From NCBI RefSeq assembly GCF_054482525.1, contig NZ_CM137006.1: DNA of 64,000 nt. The stretch is one strand, 5' to 3'. The position numbers and the translations under genes are program-made. The notes under the pieces are model-generated. The model was given only the letters and a program-made list of their open reading frames with translations. It did no database searches and was not told the DNA's origin. Shown here piece by piece: positions 27,546 to 31,046 of this stretch. Position 1 is the first letter of the stretch. The number at the start of each line of letters is the position of its first letter.

Positions 27546-29297
27546 ATGAACAGAATAGTTGTTGTTGGCCACCCAAATTCAAAATTTGAGGAAGTTGAGG
27601 ATATTCTTAGACAAAGAGGAATGGCTTATCCAAAATCCTCAAGGCGGGAAAATCTAACGCCAAGTGATATTACTACAACTATTTGTAATGCTTATCAAGT
27701 TCATCCATTAGAAGATATTGAAAACGAGAGTGAACTTCATCCATTACAGATTTCTCCTGTATGGAATAGCCTTGTTTTGGATTTAATGCTTAACAATATA
27801 GATCAATTATTTTGGGGGTGGTCAGATCCAAATTTAATATTTTTACTAAATTATTGGTTGGATCTTGATGATAAGTTAATGTTTGTATTGGTTTATGATA
27901 AGCCTCAGTCAGTATTAATAGACAGAAAAAACGAAACATATGTAGACGAAAGAAATATTGAAAGAAAGATAAATAATTGGAACGCATATAATAGTGCATT
28001 ATTAAGATTCTTTCTGCGAAATAAAAAAAGATGCATATTGGTTAGTTCTGAACAAATAAAAAGGAATGCTGAGGATTGCATACAACAAATTCAAGATCTT
28101 CTTGAGTTGCCATCTTTATCTTCAACATTAATAGAAAAGAATACAGATATTATAAATTCCTCTCAAACTAATGAATTATCATGTCAGCTTCCAGTAATAC
28201 ATCAAGATATAATTAATATTTCTGGTATTGACTCAAGAGTTGTCAGGACTGCATTTTCAAATGAAATCACAGAGAATTACTTGCTAAAACATTTACTAGA
28301 ATACTACCCTGCAAGTCAACAGCTTTATGCTGAATTACAATCTGTAGCTAATCTCCCGTCTCAATCATTTATACAAGAGATTCATCCAACTAAGGCTTTT
28401 GAAAATTTTATGCAACAACAGGATGTGAGTTATAAACTAATAACCGCACTCCATAAAGCATACAAAAATATTAATAATGATACTCAACTTATACTGTCTG
28501 AAAAAAATAAAGAACAATCGTTAGTATTGTCACAATTATACGAAGCCCAGGAAGATTTAGAGAGCTTTTATTTAAACAAGAAAAATTTAGAAAAAGAGCT
28601 TAAAATTAAGGAATGCCATCTTGAAGATAAGGAAAGATTAGTTAAAGAAAAAGAAAAAGAACGTAATTGTTTAGAAATTAAACTAGGTGAGCTTGAAAAA
28701 GAATTCAAAGCCACATTAAAAACATTGCAGGAACGTGAATCTCAAATAAAATTATCACAACGATCAATACATGAGCTTCAAAGCAAGTTATCATCACTGA
28801 ATGCGACTGAACAAAAAGCTAAAGAGCTGCGTTCTGGCATTTCACGATTAGAAGAAGAGAATAAATCATTAATATCCCAACTACATCGCGCCCAAGATGA
28901 ACTGGAGAAATATTATTACGATAACCAAAAGCTCAAGCAACAATTACCAGTACCACTGTATGGGGCAGCTCAGCGAATAAAAAATGAACTAGGGTATAAG
29001 TTAGGTGCAGTTATGATAAAACATTCGCACTCACTATTTGGTTGGCTAGGAATGCCTTGGGCTCTTTGCTCTGAAGCTAAAAAATATCGAAATCAAAAGA
29101 AAGATATTGTGCATAATAATGAACCACCTATTTATGCATATAATGACGCCTTTGAAGCAGAACGAGTAAAAAAACATCTTTCTTATAGATTAGGACAGAC
29201 ATTACTTAAAAATATTAAGTCTCCATTAGGTTGGATTAAACTCCCATTTGCACTAGCACAAAATGTACGAGAGTTTCGATTAGAACGAGGTGAGTAA
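27546..29297 (+). CDS. Serotype-block protein A: large protein with long central coiled coil, function unknown
   Basis: 584-aa ORF, very AT-rich; central E/K/L/Q-rich heptad-like stretch (...KNLEKELKIKECHLEDKERLVKEKEKERNCLEIKLGELEKEFKATLKTLQERESQIKLSQ...); no motif I could assign. Confidence 0.6.
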   Translation: MNRIVVVGHPNSKFEEVEDILRQRGMAYPKSSRRENLTPSDITTTICNAYQVHPLEDIENESELHPLQISPVWNSLVLDLMLNNIDQLFWGWSDPNLIFLLNYWLDLDDKLMFVLVYDKPQSVLIDRKNETYVDERNIERKINNWNAYNSALLRFFLRNKKRCILVSSEQIKRNAEDCIQQIQDLLELPSLSSTLIEKNTDIINSSQTNELSCQLPVIHQDIINISGIDSRVVRTAFSNEITENYLLKHLLEYYPASQQLYAELQSVANLPSQSFIQEIHPTKAFENFMQQQDVSYKLITALHKAYKNINNDTQLILSEKNKEQSLVLSQLYEAQEDLESFYLNKKNLEKELKIKECHLEDKERLVKEKEKERNCLEIKLGELEKEFKATLKTLQERESQIKLSQRSIHELQSKLSSLNATEQKAKELRSGISRLEEENKSLISQLHRAQDELEKYYYDNQKLKQQLPVPLYGAAQRIKNELGYKLGAVMIKHSHSLFGWLGMPWALCSEAKKYRNQKKDIVHNNEPPIYAYNDAFEAERVKKHLSYRLGQTLLKNIKSPLGWIKLPFALAQNVREFRLERGE

Positions 29298-29303
29298 TAT
29301 ACG

Positions 29304-31046
29304 ATGAAATCAATATCTATGATTTCCCAACCGGAGGAAACATGGCTGGATTGTTTAAGTTCGATATATCCACCGACAGGCGTCATGGTCATTGGTGCTG
29401 GAAATGGAAGCAGTATTTGGGTCCAATGGCTTTACAAAAAATGTGTGAATCCTGTCATTTTGGTTGAAGGGAATCAGAAGCAGTTTCAGTTGTTAAAACA
29501 TAATATTCCTTTAAATAAAGAATGGGTTTTCTTGAATAAGATTGTAATATTCGGGAGTGAGCCACATATTTTTCATTATGTAGATAACTCACGAGAAAAC
29601 GGGTTGTTATCTCCAGAGCAATTACATTCACTATGGCCAAATATAAAGTGTATAGGTGAAGAGGCAATACATAATGGTATCACACTTAATAGCCTACAAA
29701 AAAGTGAAAACTTACCCTTGAATTGGCTATTTATTGATTGCCTACCCGCACCAGAAATTCTTGAGCATGCGGGGGATATGTTACATCGAATAGAGGTTGT
29801 AGTAAGTAGGGTAGTCATACAAGATGAACCATTTTCAGCTAGCCTAAAAAATTTAGACAAAGTTTTGAATGAAGTAGGCATGCGGCGGGTCCATTTATTT
29901 CAAGAACGTCATCCTTCTATAGGCTATGCTATTTATACTAGAAATGTAGCATTAAAAATAACTGAGGCAGAAAGTCTAAAAGAAGAAATTAAACAACAGC
30001 AGCGGAAGATAAGTATATTACAGTCTAGCTTGGAACAGCAATCTGTTGAGTATGAATTAAAAATTCATGATATTGAAAAAAAACACAAGTTAGAATTTGA
30101 AAAAATCCTGGATAAAAAAAATCATATTAAGAATGAATTATTAAAACTAAAAAATAAATTGGAGCTATCTGTTATTAATCTGAATGAGTTCCATGCTGTT
30201 AATGAAAACATTTTATCTAAATATGAAATTCATACAGATAATGTATGCACGATGATGAAAAAGATAGAGGAACAGCAAAAGGAAATATATACTCAAATTA
30301 ATAAAAATTTACCCGTTTTAATAAAAAAAGAATTAGATGCAAAACTTAACAAATCTGTTCGTCATGTAGAGGCCTTCATATCCATTCAACAATACTTGAC
30401 TCATGGTGACTGTATAACAGGATTTCATGGTTGGCCAATAAGCCCGGATATGGGGGTATTTCTCTTAGAAAAAATACGTGAGCGAAATTATGATGCTATC
30501 ATTGAGTTTGGAAGTGGAGTTTCAACTTTATTGATAGCTAAAGGTCTTATGGCATTTAATCTTTTCAAAGATAATGAAGATAAATGCTTCATTAGTTTCG
30601 ATCATGATGAGTATTATTTTACTAATACACAAAGTCTGCTTGCTTATCATGGTGTCGAATCAATGGTGGATCTATATTTAACTCCGCTAAAAGAATGGTC
30701 CGATTGTACAGGATGCTATAAATATTACTCTTGTGAAGATGTATTAATTGAGTTAGCAAAGCGTATACAAGATGGTTCTAAGAGATTATTAGTCCTTGTA
30801 GATGGACCGCCTGGTAATACATGCGCTAATGCACGTTATCCTGCACTTCCATTTATGTCTCACTTTATATCTAATCACGAAATTGATTGGGTCTTGGATG
30901 ATGCTTATCGAGATGAAGAAAAGTTAACGGCTGAGTTATGGAAAAAATATTGGTCAGCGGAGAATATACAGTTCACTCATGATTTTATAAAAAATGAAAA
31001 AGGGATGTTTTTTGCGACTACTTATGGAAGAAAATCTACTTCGTAA
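29304..31046 (+). CDS. Serotype-block protein B: coiled-coil protein with Rossmann-like glycine-rich motifs (possible methyltransferase-like domains)
   Basis: 580-aa ORF; N-terminal VMVIGAGNGSS, central coiled coil, C-terminal AIIEFGSGVSTLLIA and LLVLVDGPPGN motifs resembling class I SAM-dependent methyltransferase motifs I and post-I. Confidence 0.55.
   Translation: MKSISMISQPEETWLDCLSSIYPPTGVMVIGAGNGSSIWVQWLYKKCVNPVILVEGNQKQFQLLKHNIPLNKEWVFLNKIVIFGSEPHIFHYVDNSRENGLLSPEQLHSLWPNIKCIGEEAIHNGITLNSLQKSENLPLNWLFIDCLPAPEILEHAGDMLHRIEVVVSRVVIQDEPFSASLKNLDKVLNEVGMRRVHLFQERHPSIGYAIYTRNVALKITEAESLKEEIKQQQRKISILQSSLEQQSVEYELKIHDIEKKHKLEFEKILDKKNHIKNELLKLKNKLELSVINLNEFHAVNENILSKYEIHTDNVCTMMKKIEEQQKEIYTQINKNLPVLIKKELDAKLNKSVRHVEAFISIQQYLTHGDCITGFHGWPISPDMGVFLLEKIRERNYDAIIEFGSGVSTLLIAKGLMAFNLFKDNEDKCFISFDHDEYYFTNTQSLLAYHGVESMVDLYLTPLKEWSDCTGCYKYYSCEDVLIELAKRIQDGSKRLLVLVDGPPGNTCANARYPALPFMSHFISNHEIDWVLDDAYRDEEKLTAELWKKYWSAENIQFTHDFIKNEKGMFFATTYGRKSTS

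What the first reader, a model, noticed from the sequence alone, without database searches (positions are those of the whole stretch)
27546..31046. Two large coiled-coil proteins heading the capsule serotype block
The first two genes after kpsT encode 584- and 580-aa proteins with the same tripartite plan: an N-terminal glycine-rich Rossmann-like segment (VVVGHPNSK / VMVIGAGNGSS), a 120-170-residue E/K/L/Q-rich coiled coil, and a distinct C-terminal domain. Protein B's C-terminus carries AIIEFGSGVSTLLIA and LLVLVDGPPGN, which resemble class I SAM-methyltransferase motifs. I cannot place either protein in a characterised capsule-biosynthesis family, yet they sit in the polycistronic region 3 to region 2 transcript. 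They could be polymer-modifying or chain-length-organising proteins, or an unrelated system nested in the capsule locus.
Basis: partly seen in the sequence, partly recalled or inferred. Interest (0 to 1): 0.7.

Follow-up and report, generated by a model that had tools for sequence, protein, structure and literature searches.

The report
KfiB-like scaffold plus coiled-coil methyltransferase
The two big coiled-coil genes after kpsT in this E. coli K53/K93 capsule locus are real; the first is a full-length relative of KfiB, the essential but biochemically unexplained accessory protein of the K5 capsule, and the second is a coiled-coil protein with two methyltransferase-like domains whose target is unknown.

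Summary
Window 27546-29297 and 29304-31046 encode 583- and 580-aa proteins, each a globular head, a 150-170-aa Pro-free E/K/L/Q-rich helical stalk, and a distinct tail.

The cluster is already catalogued as K53/K93 genes 13 and 12 (Nat Microbiol 2026). In the 41 related loci fetched, from several bacterial phyla, the KfiB-like gene lies downstream of kpsM-kpsT (directly, or after kpsE-kpsD) wherever those genes were captured, whatever the sugar genes. It is usually followed by a gene with B's head domain and an exchangeable tail.

Best reading: A is a membrane-anchored organiser of the biosynthetic complex, and B is a tethered methyltransferase acting on the nascent chain, possibly its non-reducing end. 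It is a new member of a known but unresolved kind.

The parts
25806..25813 (+). ops element (GGCGGTAG) upstream of kpsM. From established knowledge this is the RfaH-dependent read-through signal of the region 3 transcript.
   Evidence: Exact match found. It lies about 33 nt before the kpsM ATG at 25846.
25846..27311 (+). kpsM-kpsT, the ABC transporter genes (region 3) that precede the pair.
   Evidence: ORFs and translations. phmmer matches to KpsM/KpsT in the related loci where the flanks were captured. KpsT is 230 aa, with no extra C-terminal domain.
27546..29297 (+). ORF A, a KfiB-family protein (583 aa from the ATG; the TTG at 27543 would give 584 aa).
   Evidence: BLASTP against Nissle 1917 KfiB gives E=3e-98, 32% identity over 580 aa. 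hhalign probability is 100%. It is catalogued as K53_K93_13.
27546..28115 (+). A head (residues 1-190): a sulfotransferase-fold domain without PAPS-binding residues.
28431..28943 (+). A stalk (residues 296-466): a predicted coiled coil. Family-specific LxQLHxVQEELE-type motifs sit at 28524-28562 and 28869-28907.
   Evidence: Composition. SMC-model hits. Published Coils call. The motif is found only in A-family proteins: 158/241 of them, against 0/144 BN-containing proteins and 0/1962 other ORFs. Stalk length ranges from 60 to 451 aa across 167 relatives.
28953..29294 (+). A tail (residues 470-583): two tandem ~45-aa repeats (YGAAxRIKxxLxYxLG...GW..LPxAL). This is probably the Pfam DUF8374 region. 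It is inferred to be the membrane or export-complex anchor.
   Evidence: Internal repeat seen in the sequence and in alignment A6. It matches the N-terminus of the Campylobacter MeOPN-transferase family NF058596, E=1.4e-7. Fragments of 80-200 aa containing only this region carry PF28160.
29304..31046 (+). ORF B, a coiled-coil protein of 580 aa with two methyltransferase-like domains.
   Evidence: ORF. 117 of the 120 listed database relatives share both domains. Catalogued as K53_K93_12. RefSeq names a plasmid homologue 'O-methyltransferase'.
29334..29942 (+). B head 'BN' (residues 11-213): a class I methyltransferase-like domain with weak FkbM-like similarity. G31, G35 and E55 are invariant. 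This is the part that travels with the KfiB-like gene.
   Evidence: pLDDT above 90 with a beta-alpha-beta topology. Invariant columns. FkbM model TIGR01444 scores E=0.0023 here and 6.9e-6 in the Achromobacter homologue, both below the cut-off. It is encoded directly after the A gene in most of the 41 loci.
29946..30404 (+). B stalk (residues 215-367): long helices, a predicted coiled coil.
   Evidence: AlphaFold helices 215-295 and 304-367. Composition. The spacer ranges from 64 to 443 aa in 117 relatives.
30435..31025 (+). B tail 'BC' (residues 378-574): a COMT/CCoAOMT-like (family 3) O-methyltransferase domain.
31089..37717 (+). Rest of region 2 (context): dual GT2 (31089-33083), glf (33129-34235), hexapeptide acetyltransferase (34262-34930), ugd (35079-36248), GT2 (36251-37717).
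   Evidence: NCBIfam hits. The gene set fits a Galf/GlcA O-acetylated polymer and the K53/K93 catalogue entry.

Best explanation
ORF A is the K53/K93 counterpart of KfiB.

Shown:
- A is homologous to KfiB over its full length.
- Its head has a sulfotransferase fold with no PAPS-binding residues. In their place is a family-specific, Trp-rich invariant set.
- It has a variable-length coiled-coil stalk.
- It has a tandem amphipathic C-terminal repeat, also found at the N-terminus of Campylobacter capsule-modifying (MeOPN) transferases.

Inferred from KfiB genetics and biochemistry, and from the gene's fixed position next to the export genes: A is a non-catalytic (or non-sulfotransferase) organiser. 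Its tail anchors it at the inner membrane or at KpsMT. Its head and stalk hold the region-2 enzymes at the site where the chain is made and exported.

ORF B is its partner. Shown: a conserved methyltransferase-like head (BN) that is almost always encoded directly after a KfiB-like gene, a coiled coil, and a COMT-like O-methyltransferase tail. In other bacteria that tail is replaced by FkbM-type or other methyltransferases, or by a GH145-like domain.

Inferred: B is tethered to A or to the export complex and methylates the nascent polysaccharide. The published K53/K93 repeat unit (Galf-GlcA with O-acetyl; recalled from Bax et al. 1988, not re-read here) has no methyl group. The likeliest target is therefore sub-stoichiometric, such as the non-reducing end of the chain.
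For: A = KfiB homologue: plus the independent published all-vs-all table.

KfiB biology: it is essential for surface K5 capsule. It stabilises a membrane-associated KfiA/KfiC complex and contacts KpsM/KpsT (review citing Hodson 2000 and Hu 2024).

Fold of the A head. Loss of PAPS residues across 191 relatives.

Tail repeat shared with MeOPN transferases.

Fixed position independent of sugar chemistry. Where the flanks were captured, the gene lies after kpsM-kpsT or after kpsMTED. The accompanying sugar genes include glf/ugd, ManNAcA-type and others.

A KfiB-like protein is fused to a dual GT2 in one 1343-aa ORF in L019. This supports physical coupling to the polymerase.

B domains. BN is adjacent to A in most loci, with exchangeable C-terminal modules: FkbM in L005, L021, L023 and L036; GH145-like in L031 and L033.

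The A-B gap is 6 nt, on one transcript with ops.
Against: - No experiment exists on these two proteins.
- KfiB's own mechanism is unresolved. Heparosan can be made in recombinant E. coli BL21 without it (paper title cited).
- The head of A is too conserved for a mere spacer (11 nearly invariant polar or aromatic residues). It may have an undiscovered catalytic or ligand-binding role.
- A physical A-B interaction is not shown. Stalk lengths of A and B in 13 gene pairs correlate only weakly (r=0.45, p=0.13).
- A occurs without any B-type gene in K5, in another E. coli K type, in E. whittamii, and in several Campylobacteraceae and Burkholderiales loci.
- B's domains miss the Pfam/NCBIfam thresholds, so catalytic competence is inferred from conserved motifs only.
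- No methylated K53/K93 product is known.
Confidence: 0.55

Rival explanations
1. A and B together form a WbdD-like chain terminator and molecular ruler for ABC-transporter capsules. A anchors the complex at the membrane. The coiled coils set the distance. B methylates the non-reducing terminal sugar, which stops polymerisation and fixes chain length.
For: The same building blocks as WbdD are present, split over two proteins: a methyltransferase, a P-loop-related fold, a coiled coil and a C-terminal membrane-binding region. Stalk length is hypervariable: 60-451 aa in A and 64-443 aa in B. The effector end of B-type proteins is swapped between methyltransferase families, including one RfbT-like match. 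RfbT is, from my knowledge, a terminal O-antigen methyltransferase. KfiB is reported to recruit the polymerising enzymes to the membrane, as WbdD does for WbdA (from my knowledge). The known repeat unit has no methyl group.
Confidence: 0.2
2. A is an active PAPS-dependent sulfotransferase, as the labels 'putative sulfotransferase' and 'sulfotransferase family protein' suggest, and it sulfates the capsule or its primer.
Against: By pattern and alignment, the equivalents of the PAPS-binding and catalytic residues of TPST (R78, K158, R183) are never Lys or Arg in 191 family members. The loop is V-G-H-P-x-S-G-Y. Neither heparosan (K5) nor K53/K93 is known to be sulfated (from my knowledge).
Confidence: 0.06
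3. A is a transition transferase that adds the first serotype-specific residue to the poly-Kdo linker.
For: Its position at the head of region 2 and its independence from sugar type would suit a linker-recognising protein. KfiB was listed as a candidate by Litschko et al..
Against: Purified KfiB did not extend Kdo2 or Kdo3 acceptors with its candidate donors. The fold is not a glycosyltransferase fold.
Confidence: 0.05
4. B's two methyltransferase-like domains are catalytically dead, and B is purely structural, for example a second stalk of the scaffold.
For: Both domains fall below the family thresholds: Methyltransf_24 E=0.92, and FkbM 18.4 bits against a 37.7-bit cut-off. No methylated product is known.
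Against: The cofactor-type motifs are invariant over 41 diverse sequences: G31/G35/E55 in BN, and EFGSGxST, FEH, D500 and D532/D533 in BC. In other loci the tail is a bona fide FkbM domain scoring far above the cut-off.
Confidence: 0.12
5. The pair is an unrelated system that happens to be nested in the capsule locus.
For: Neither function is required by the known repeat-unit chemistry.
Against: Wherever the flanks were captured, homologues lie inside kps-type loci next to the export genes, in Enterobacterales, Burkholderiales, Xanthomonadales, Chlorobi, Campylobacteraceae, Acidobacteria and a deltaproteobacterium. KfiB is needed for capsule.
Confidence: 0.02

Closest known systems
KfiB of the E. 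coli K5 (heparosan) capsule cluster. RefSeq annotates family members as 'kfiB protein', 'DUF8374 domain-containing protein' or 'sulfotransferase family protein'.
   Same: Full-length homology to ORF A: 32% identity, E=3e-98. It has the same head-stalk-tail plan, including the LxQLHxVQEELE motif and the tandem C-terminal repeat. It sits in region 2 of a group 2 kps locus.
   Different: In K5 the gene lies between kfiA and kfiC and has no B-type partner. Here it is the first region-2 gene and is followed 6 nt later by B. KfiB lacks the S-R-R-E segment that most relatives have. The partner glycosyltransferases differ: GT2 enzymes about 30% identical to KfiC, and no KfiA-like enzyme.
K53_K93_13 and K53_K93_12 of the kTYPr catalogue (Nat Microbiol 2026, PMC13171606), and the 'putative methyltransferase genes with coiled-coil regions' that the same paper notes in group 3 clusters.
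   Same: Lengths (583 and 580 aa), gene order and domain calls match the window: P-loop superfamily 13-225 plus coil 331-466; SAM-methyltransferase superfamily 379-564 plus coils. I could not compare the sequences directly.
   Different: The catalogue gives InterPro labels only. It gives no statement on function, on the loss of PAPS residues, on the BN domain, or on the conserved A-BN gene pair outside E. coli.
WbdD of E. coli O9a (O-antigen chain terminator and molecular ruler). This is a comparison of mechanism, from my own knowledge.
   Same: A methyltransferase, a P-loop-related domain, a coiled coil and a C-terminal membrane-binding region, in an ABC-transporter-dependent glycan pathway. 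It recruits the polymerase to the membrane.
   Different: No detectable homology. The parts are split over two proteins. The P-loop-related domain is sulfotransferase-like and lacks nucleotide-binding residues, rather than being a kinase. The transporter has no cap-reading module. No terminal cap is known.
COMT / CCoAOMT-like (family 3, cation-dependent) O-methyltransferases.
   Same: Fold and N-terminal SAM-binding motifs of B's C-terminal domain. Invariant acidic residues are present; I infer, without a residue-level alignment of that half, that they occupy the metal-binding positions.
   Different: Sequence identity is only 13-20%. The Pfam threshold is not reached. D-G-P-P replaces the D-x-x-K segment. 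The domain is fused to a coiled coil and a second methyltransferase-like domain.
Campylobacter jejuni MeOPN transferases (NCBIfam NF058596, CJJ81176_1420 family).
   Same: They share the YGAAxRIK..LSYRLG repeat region: A residues 475-560 match profile positions 7-99, E=1.4e-7. They are also capsule-modifying proteins of a kps-type system.
   Different: The repeat is N-terminal there and C-terminal here. No similarity was detected outside it.

Membership tests
KfiB family (DUF8374-containing capsule accessory proteins) | Full-length sequence homology to K5 KfiB | tested here: met
   BLASTP E=3e-98, 32% identity over 580 of 583/562 residues. hhalign probability 100%, E=2.8e-81.
KfiB family (DUF8374-containing capsule accessory proteins) | C-terminal tandem repeat (Pfam PF28160 / DUF8374) | tested here: met
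   Relatives carry a precomputed PF28160 assignment. Fragments holding only the tail carry it. The repeat is conserved in alignment A6, which includes KfiB. The Pfam-A copy used by profile_search did not report it for the window protein, presumably because that copy predates the family.
KfiB family (DUF8374-containing capsule accessory proteins) | Encoded in the serotype-specific block of a kps-type ABC-transporter capsule locus | tested here: met
   Window layout and 41 related loci.
KfiB family (DUF8374-containing capsule accessory proteins) | Required for surface capsule and for membrane association of the glycosyltransferases | not testable with these tools
   Known for KfiB only.
PAPS-dependent sulfotransferases | Sulfotransferase fold | tested here: met
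PAPS-dependent sulfotransferases | 5'-phosphosulfate-binding loop with a Lys/Arg (PKxGTT / GxPRSGTT) | tested here: not met
   The loop is V-G-H-P-x-S-G-Y. The position I equate by pattern with the TPST Arg is S/Q/A/L/N/D in 191 relatives.
PAPS-dependent sulfotransferases | 3'-phosphate-binding Arg and the catalytic Lys of the KDP segment | tested here: not met
   In the HMMER alignment to TPST1, the Arg of VRDGR aligns with Y117 (Y 184, F 7 of 191). The Lys of KDP aligns with position 93 (A/S/L, never K or R).
Class I SAM-dependent O-methyltransferases, COMT/CCoAOMT-like (B residues 378-574) | Fold | tested here: met
Class I SAM-dependent O-methyltransferases, COMT/CCoAOMT-like (B residues 378-574) | Motif I (E/D-x-G-x-G-x-G type) and an acidic residue at the end of strand 2 | tested here: met
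   E401-F-G-S-G-x-S-T is invariant. F-[ED]-H434 aligns with the COMT 'tmE' position.
Class I SAM-dependent O-methyltransferases, COMT/CCoAOMT-like (B residues 378-574) | Metal-binding acidic triad | tested here: inconclusive
   D500, D532 and D533 are invariant. Their equivalence to COMT D141/D169/N170 is inferred from position in the fold, not from a residue-level structural alignment.
Class I SAM-dependent O-methyltransferases, COMT/CCoAOMT-like (B residues 378-574) | Reaches a curated family threshold | tested here: not met
   Pfam Methyltransf_24 E=0.92. No NCBIfam hit. The published Gene3D 3.40.50.150 hit is 2.2e-11.
FkbM-family methyltransferases (B residues 11-213) | Match to the FkbM model above its cut-off | tested here: not met
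   TIGR01444 scores 18.4 bits (E=0.0023) against a cut-off of 37.7. The Achromobacter homologue scores 26.6 bits. The G-x-G-x-G motif and E55 are invariant.
WbdD-type O-antigen chain terminators | Homology to WbdD | tested here: not met
WbdD-type O-antigen chain terminators | Catalytic head, coiled coil and C-terminal membrane-binding region | tested here: inconclusive
   All elements are present but divided between A and B. Membrane binding of the tail is inferred.
WbdD-type O-antigen chain terminators | Transporter ATPase with a carbohydrate-binding module that recognises the cap | tested here: not met
   KpsT is 230 aa, with no extra domain. KpsT ORFs in the related loci are mostly 216-285 aa as called.
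WbdD-type O-antigen chain terminators | Methyl or phosphomethyl group on the non-reducing terminal sugar | not testable with these tools
   Needs chemistry on intact chains.

The most novel reading that the evidence does not exclude
The KfiB-like protein and its BN-coiled-coil-effector partner form a widespread chain-terminating or chain-length-setting device of kps-type (ABC-transporter) capsules. It would be analogous to WbdD but evolutionarily unrelated. The membrane-anchored KfiB-like stalk positions an exchangeable enzyme (COMT-like, FkbM-like or RfbT-like methyltransferase, or a GH145-like hydrolase) at a set distance, so that it caps or trims the non-reducing end. This would be the first terminator described for this capsule class. 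It would also explain why KfiB is essential yet has no detected enzymatic activity.
Probability: 0.2. Interest if true: 0.8.

Novelty: new member of a known kind. Interest (0 to 1): 0.42.

Why it matters
How group 2/3 (ABC-transporter) capsules stop growing, and what KfiB actually does, are open questions. KfiB is essential for the K5 capsule. The K5 polymer is heparosan, an industrial heparin precursor, and K5 is the capsule of Nissle 1917 and of K5-type ST131 strains.

- The KfiB family is large: 2166 clusters at 50% identity reach E<=0.001.
- Wherever the flanks were captured, its members sit next to the export genes, whatever the sugar chemistry.
- The family has uniformly lost the sulfotransferase cofactor site while keeping another invariant, Trp-rich site. 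It is usually paired with a coiled-coil protein carrying an exchangeable polymer-modifying enzyme.

This gives concrete, testable candidates for chain-end modification and chain-length control. It also cautions against the database label 'sulfotransferase'. For this particular window the result is mostly clarifying: the genes are known and catalogued, and one of them has a well-known homologue.

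Tried and rejected
- Pfam-A and NCBIfam scans of both proteins gave no significant domain hits, apart from the tail of A matching the MeOPN-transferase family and coiled-coil noise.
- The full-length B profile against PDB sequences gave only coiled-coil noise, plus KsgA and family-3 OMT at E about 0.5. A BC-only profile was needed to reach COMT at E=0.021.
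- I tested whether the stalk lengths of A and B co-vary, as a heteromeric coiled coil would predict. In 13 gene pairs r=0.45, p=0.13, which is inconclusive.
- I searched the large protein database with the tail repeat (A6) to find other architectures carrying it. Only short fragments came back, one named 'kfiB protein, partial' and one named 'alpha-2,3-sialyltransferase, partial', so there is no architecture survey.
- The representative-library search with the head profile gave the family size, but its top 150 did not include KfiB. KfiB was obtained instead from Nissle assembly NZ_CP022686.1, after NZ_CP007799.1 turned out to lack the kfi genes.
- Literature searches for DUF8374/PF28160 found nothing. 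The K96 group 3 preprint and the group 3 diversity paper gave no functional data on the methyltransferase.
- Rejected readings: an active sulfotransferase (residues absent); an unrelated nested system (conserved context); a Rossmann dinucleotide-binding reading of A's N-terminus (it is the P-loop position of a sulfotransferase fold).

Full report
**What is there.** The window is E. coli chromosome. The 3.7 kb around the finding occurs at >=99% identity in 39 of 5426 complete E. coli genomes, annotated there as two hypothetical proteins.

The layout is as follows:
- type II secretion genes
- kpsM-kpsT
- seven low-GC (about 0.32) + strand genes
- an IS1 transposase ORF
- kpsS, kpsC and further kps genes on the other strand

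The seven genes are ORF A, ORF B, a dual GT2, glf, a hexapeptide acetyltransferase, ugd and a GT2.

This is the K53/K93 cluster of the recent E. coli capsule typing study. There the two genes are K53_K93_13 (583 aa; coil 331-466; P-loop superfamily 13-225) and K53_K93_12 (580 aa; coils; SAM-methyltransferase superfamily 379-564). The match rests on lengths, gene order and domain calls, since I could not compare the sequences directly.

An ops element lies just before kpsM. No terminator-like site lies on the + strand between kpsT and the start of the acetyltransferase gene. The A-B gap is 6 nt. Co-transcription with region 3 is therefore plausible. The ATG at 27546 has a Shine-Dalgarno-like AAGG 7 nt upstream and is the likelier start.

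Both proteins have a globular head, a long Pro-free E/K/L/Q-rich helical segment, and a different tail. The helical segment is A 296-466 (56% E/K/L/Q) and B 215-367 (48%).

**ORF A is a KfiB homologue.** I fetched the kfi region of Nissle 1917. The gene between kfiA and kfiC is annotated only as 'hypothetical protein' (562 aa). ORF A aligns to it over its whole length (E=3e-98, 32% identity), with the same three parts. Profile comparison gives 100% probability. The published all-vs-all table shows the same relationship.

What is known about KfiB:
- It is essential for surface K5 capsule.
- It is reported to stabilise a membrane-associated KfiA/KfiC complex and to contact KpsM and KpsT.
- As a candidate 'transition transferase' it showed no activity on Kdo2/Kdo3 acceptors.

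The family's biochemical function is nevertheless still open.

The cofactor site is gone, however. In 191 family members the P-loop position reads V-G-H-P-x-S-G-Y, with His in 189. By pattern and alignment, the positions matching TPST R78, K158 and R183 are never Lys or Arg; position 117 is Tyr in 184 and Phe in 7. In their place there is a family-specific, nearly invariant set: H9, W73, D79, N84, W90, W92, D94, W104, Y117, W145 and N149. This argues for a real but different ligand or partner site. The labels 'sulfotransferase family protein' and 'putative sulfotransferase' describe the fold, not a supported activity.

The stalk carries a motif of the type LxQLHxVQEELE at both ends (residues 327 and 442). 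I found this motif only in A-family proteins: 158 of 241, against none of 144 BN-containing proteins and none of 1962 other ORFs. Stalk length ranges from 60 to 451 aa in 167 relatives.

The tail (470-583) is a tandem repeat, YGAAxRIKxxLxYxLG...GW..LPxAL. It is probably what Pfam calls DUF8374, because fragments holding only this part carry PF28160. It also matches the N-terminus of the Campylobacter MeOPN-transferase family. I infer that it is a module targeting proteins to the membrane or to the capsule export complex.

**Anatomy of B.** AlphaFold (mean pLDDT 83.7) gives a head at 11-213, helices at 215-295 and 304-367, and a tail at 381-574.

The head has a G-x-G-x-G motif with an invariant Glu 20 residues later. 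It has sub-threshold similarity to FkbM methyltransferases: E=0.0023 here and 6.9e-6 in the Achromobacter homologue. Neither domain reaches a Pfam or NCBIfam threshold.

**Context elsewhere.** A head-domain profile finds 2166 clusters at 50% identity with E<=0.001. Distant blastn finds family members in at least 368 of 5426 complete E. coli genomes, including K5 strains.

I examined 41 related loci: 4 fetched through database homologues and 37 from one genome per species. They come from Enterobacterales, many Burkholderiales, Pseudoxanthomonas, Chlorobi, Campylobacteraceae, an Acidobacterium and a deltaproteobacterial MAG. Wherever the flanks were captured, the KfiB-like gene lies in a kps-type locus. 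It sits directly after kpsM-kpsT, or after kpsM-kpsT-kpsE-kpsD, whatever nucleotide-sugar genes follow. A plasmid-borne group-3-type cluster in E. coli has the same pair.

The next gene almost always encodes B's head domain (BN) followed by a coiled coil, but the tail varies:
- the COMT-like domain (9 loci)
- a bona fide FkbM methyltransferase (L005, L021, L023, L036)
- other methyltransferase-like domains
- a BT3686/GH145-like domain (L031, L033)
- nothing recognisable

In one locus (L015) BN and BC are separate genes. Campylobacteraceae loci L013 and L038 have a stand-alone BC-like gene.

A occurs without BN in K5, in another E. coli K type, in E. whittamii, and in several Campylobacteraceae and Burkholderiales loci. 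In one MAG it is fused to a dual GT2 in a single 1343-aa ORF.

**How it most likely works.** Shown: the homology, the folds, the motif conservation and loss, and the conserved gene neighbourhood.

Inferred:
- A is a membrane- or transporter-anchored organiser that holds the region-2 enzymes at the export site, as proposed for KfiB.
- BN is the part of B that docks to A or to the same complex.
- The stalk spaces an exchangeable polymer-acting enzyme from the membrane.
- In this strain that enzyme is a COMT-like O-methyltransferase.

The published K53/K93 repeat (Galf-GlcA with O-acetyl groups; Bax et al. 1988, cited; the structure is recalled from memory) has no methyl group. A sub-stoichiometric target such as the non-reducing end is therefore the most economical guess.

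This resembles WbdD of the O9a O-antigen pathway in its logic. I found no homology to WbdD. KpsT has no cap-reading module. The stalk lengths of A and B are not significantly correlated (r=0.45, p=0.13, n=13). I therefore keep the terminator or ruler idea as the most novel reading, at about 20%, not as the main claim.

**Novelty and verdict.** The genes are real and capsule-linked, and they are already catalogued. One belongs to a family known since the K5 cluster was sequenced. This is a new member of a known kind whose mechanism is unresolved.

The points I did not find in the papers searched are:
- the uniform loss of the PAPS site
- the A-BN gene pair across phyla
- the modular BN-stalk-effector design

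These give the finding moderate interest (0.42). They also define direct experiments on capsule chain-end chemistry and length control.

Noticed in passing
window 38048-38551 (+): An IS1-family transposase ORF (NCBIfam NF033558, E=7e-42) sits between the last region-2 glycosyltransferase (ends 37717) and kpsS (38615-39856, - strand). This is the junction where serotype blocks are exchanged.
   Followed up: partly
L044 (NZ_CP007799.1 3414000-3432000) versus L045 (NZ_CP022686.1 1813265-1833908): The Nissle 1917 assembly NZ_CP007799.1 has kpsS directly abutting, and overlapping, kpsT, with no kfi genes. NZ_CP022686.1 has kfiD-kfiC-(IS481 pseudogene)-kfiB-kfiA between them. This is either a deletion in the sequenced stock or an assembly error.
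   Followed up: no
L019 3952-7983 (+): In a Campylobacteraceae MAG the KfiB-like protein (head, stalk, tail repeat) is fused in one 1343-aa ORF to a dual GT2 glycosyltransferase. This is a natural fusion of the accessory protein to the probable polymerase.
   Followed up: partly
L031 11799-14030 and L033 11941-14556 (+): These proteins have B's head domain and a coiled coil but carry a BT3686-like 'alpha-L-rhamnosidase' (GH145 / Pfam BNR_4) domain in place of a methyltransferase (E about 1e-93). A hydrolase-like enzyme tethered at a cytoplasmic capsule assembly site is unexpected.
   Followed up: partly
L014 and L031 (same contig JAGUXX010000101.1); L035 2616-4565 (-) and 5777-7378 (+): Some loci hold two KfiB-like genes. 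A betaproteobacterial MAG has two KfiB-like/BN-effector pairs about 15 kb apart on one contig. A deltaproteobacterial MAG has two divergently oriented KfiB-like paralogues.
   Followed up: no
L046 (plasmid pAL.H8, NZ_CP082350.1 13991-32675): A 79.6-kb E. coli plasmid carries a group-3-type kps cluster: an export gene, ABC permease, ABC ATPase and a 'sugar transporter' gene, then a DUF8374 protein, an 'O-methyltransferase' of about 613 aa, a GT2 and glf. It is the same block as in the Enterobacter FS01 locus L001. B's C-terminal part is 67% identical to it at the DNA level.
   Followed up: partly
window 28524-28562 and 28869-28907 (ORF A residues 327-339 and 442-454): A motif of the type [LIVM][LIVMF]x[QEH][LM][HYNF]xx[QH][EDK][EDAQ]L[ED] brackets the variable stalk. 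In the sequences examined it occurs only in KfiB-family proteins, often twice. Its role (register, partner docking) is unknown.
   Followed up: partly
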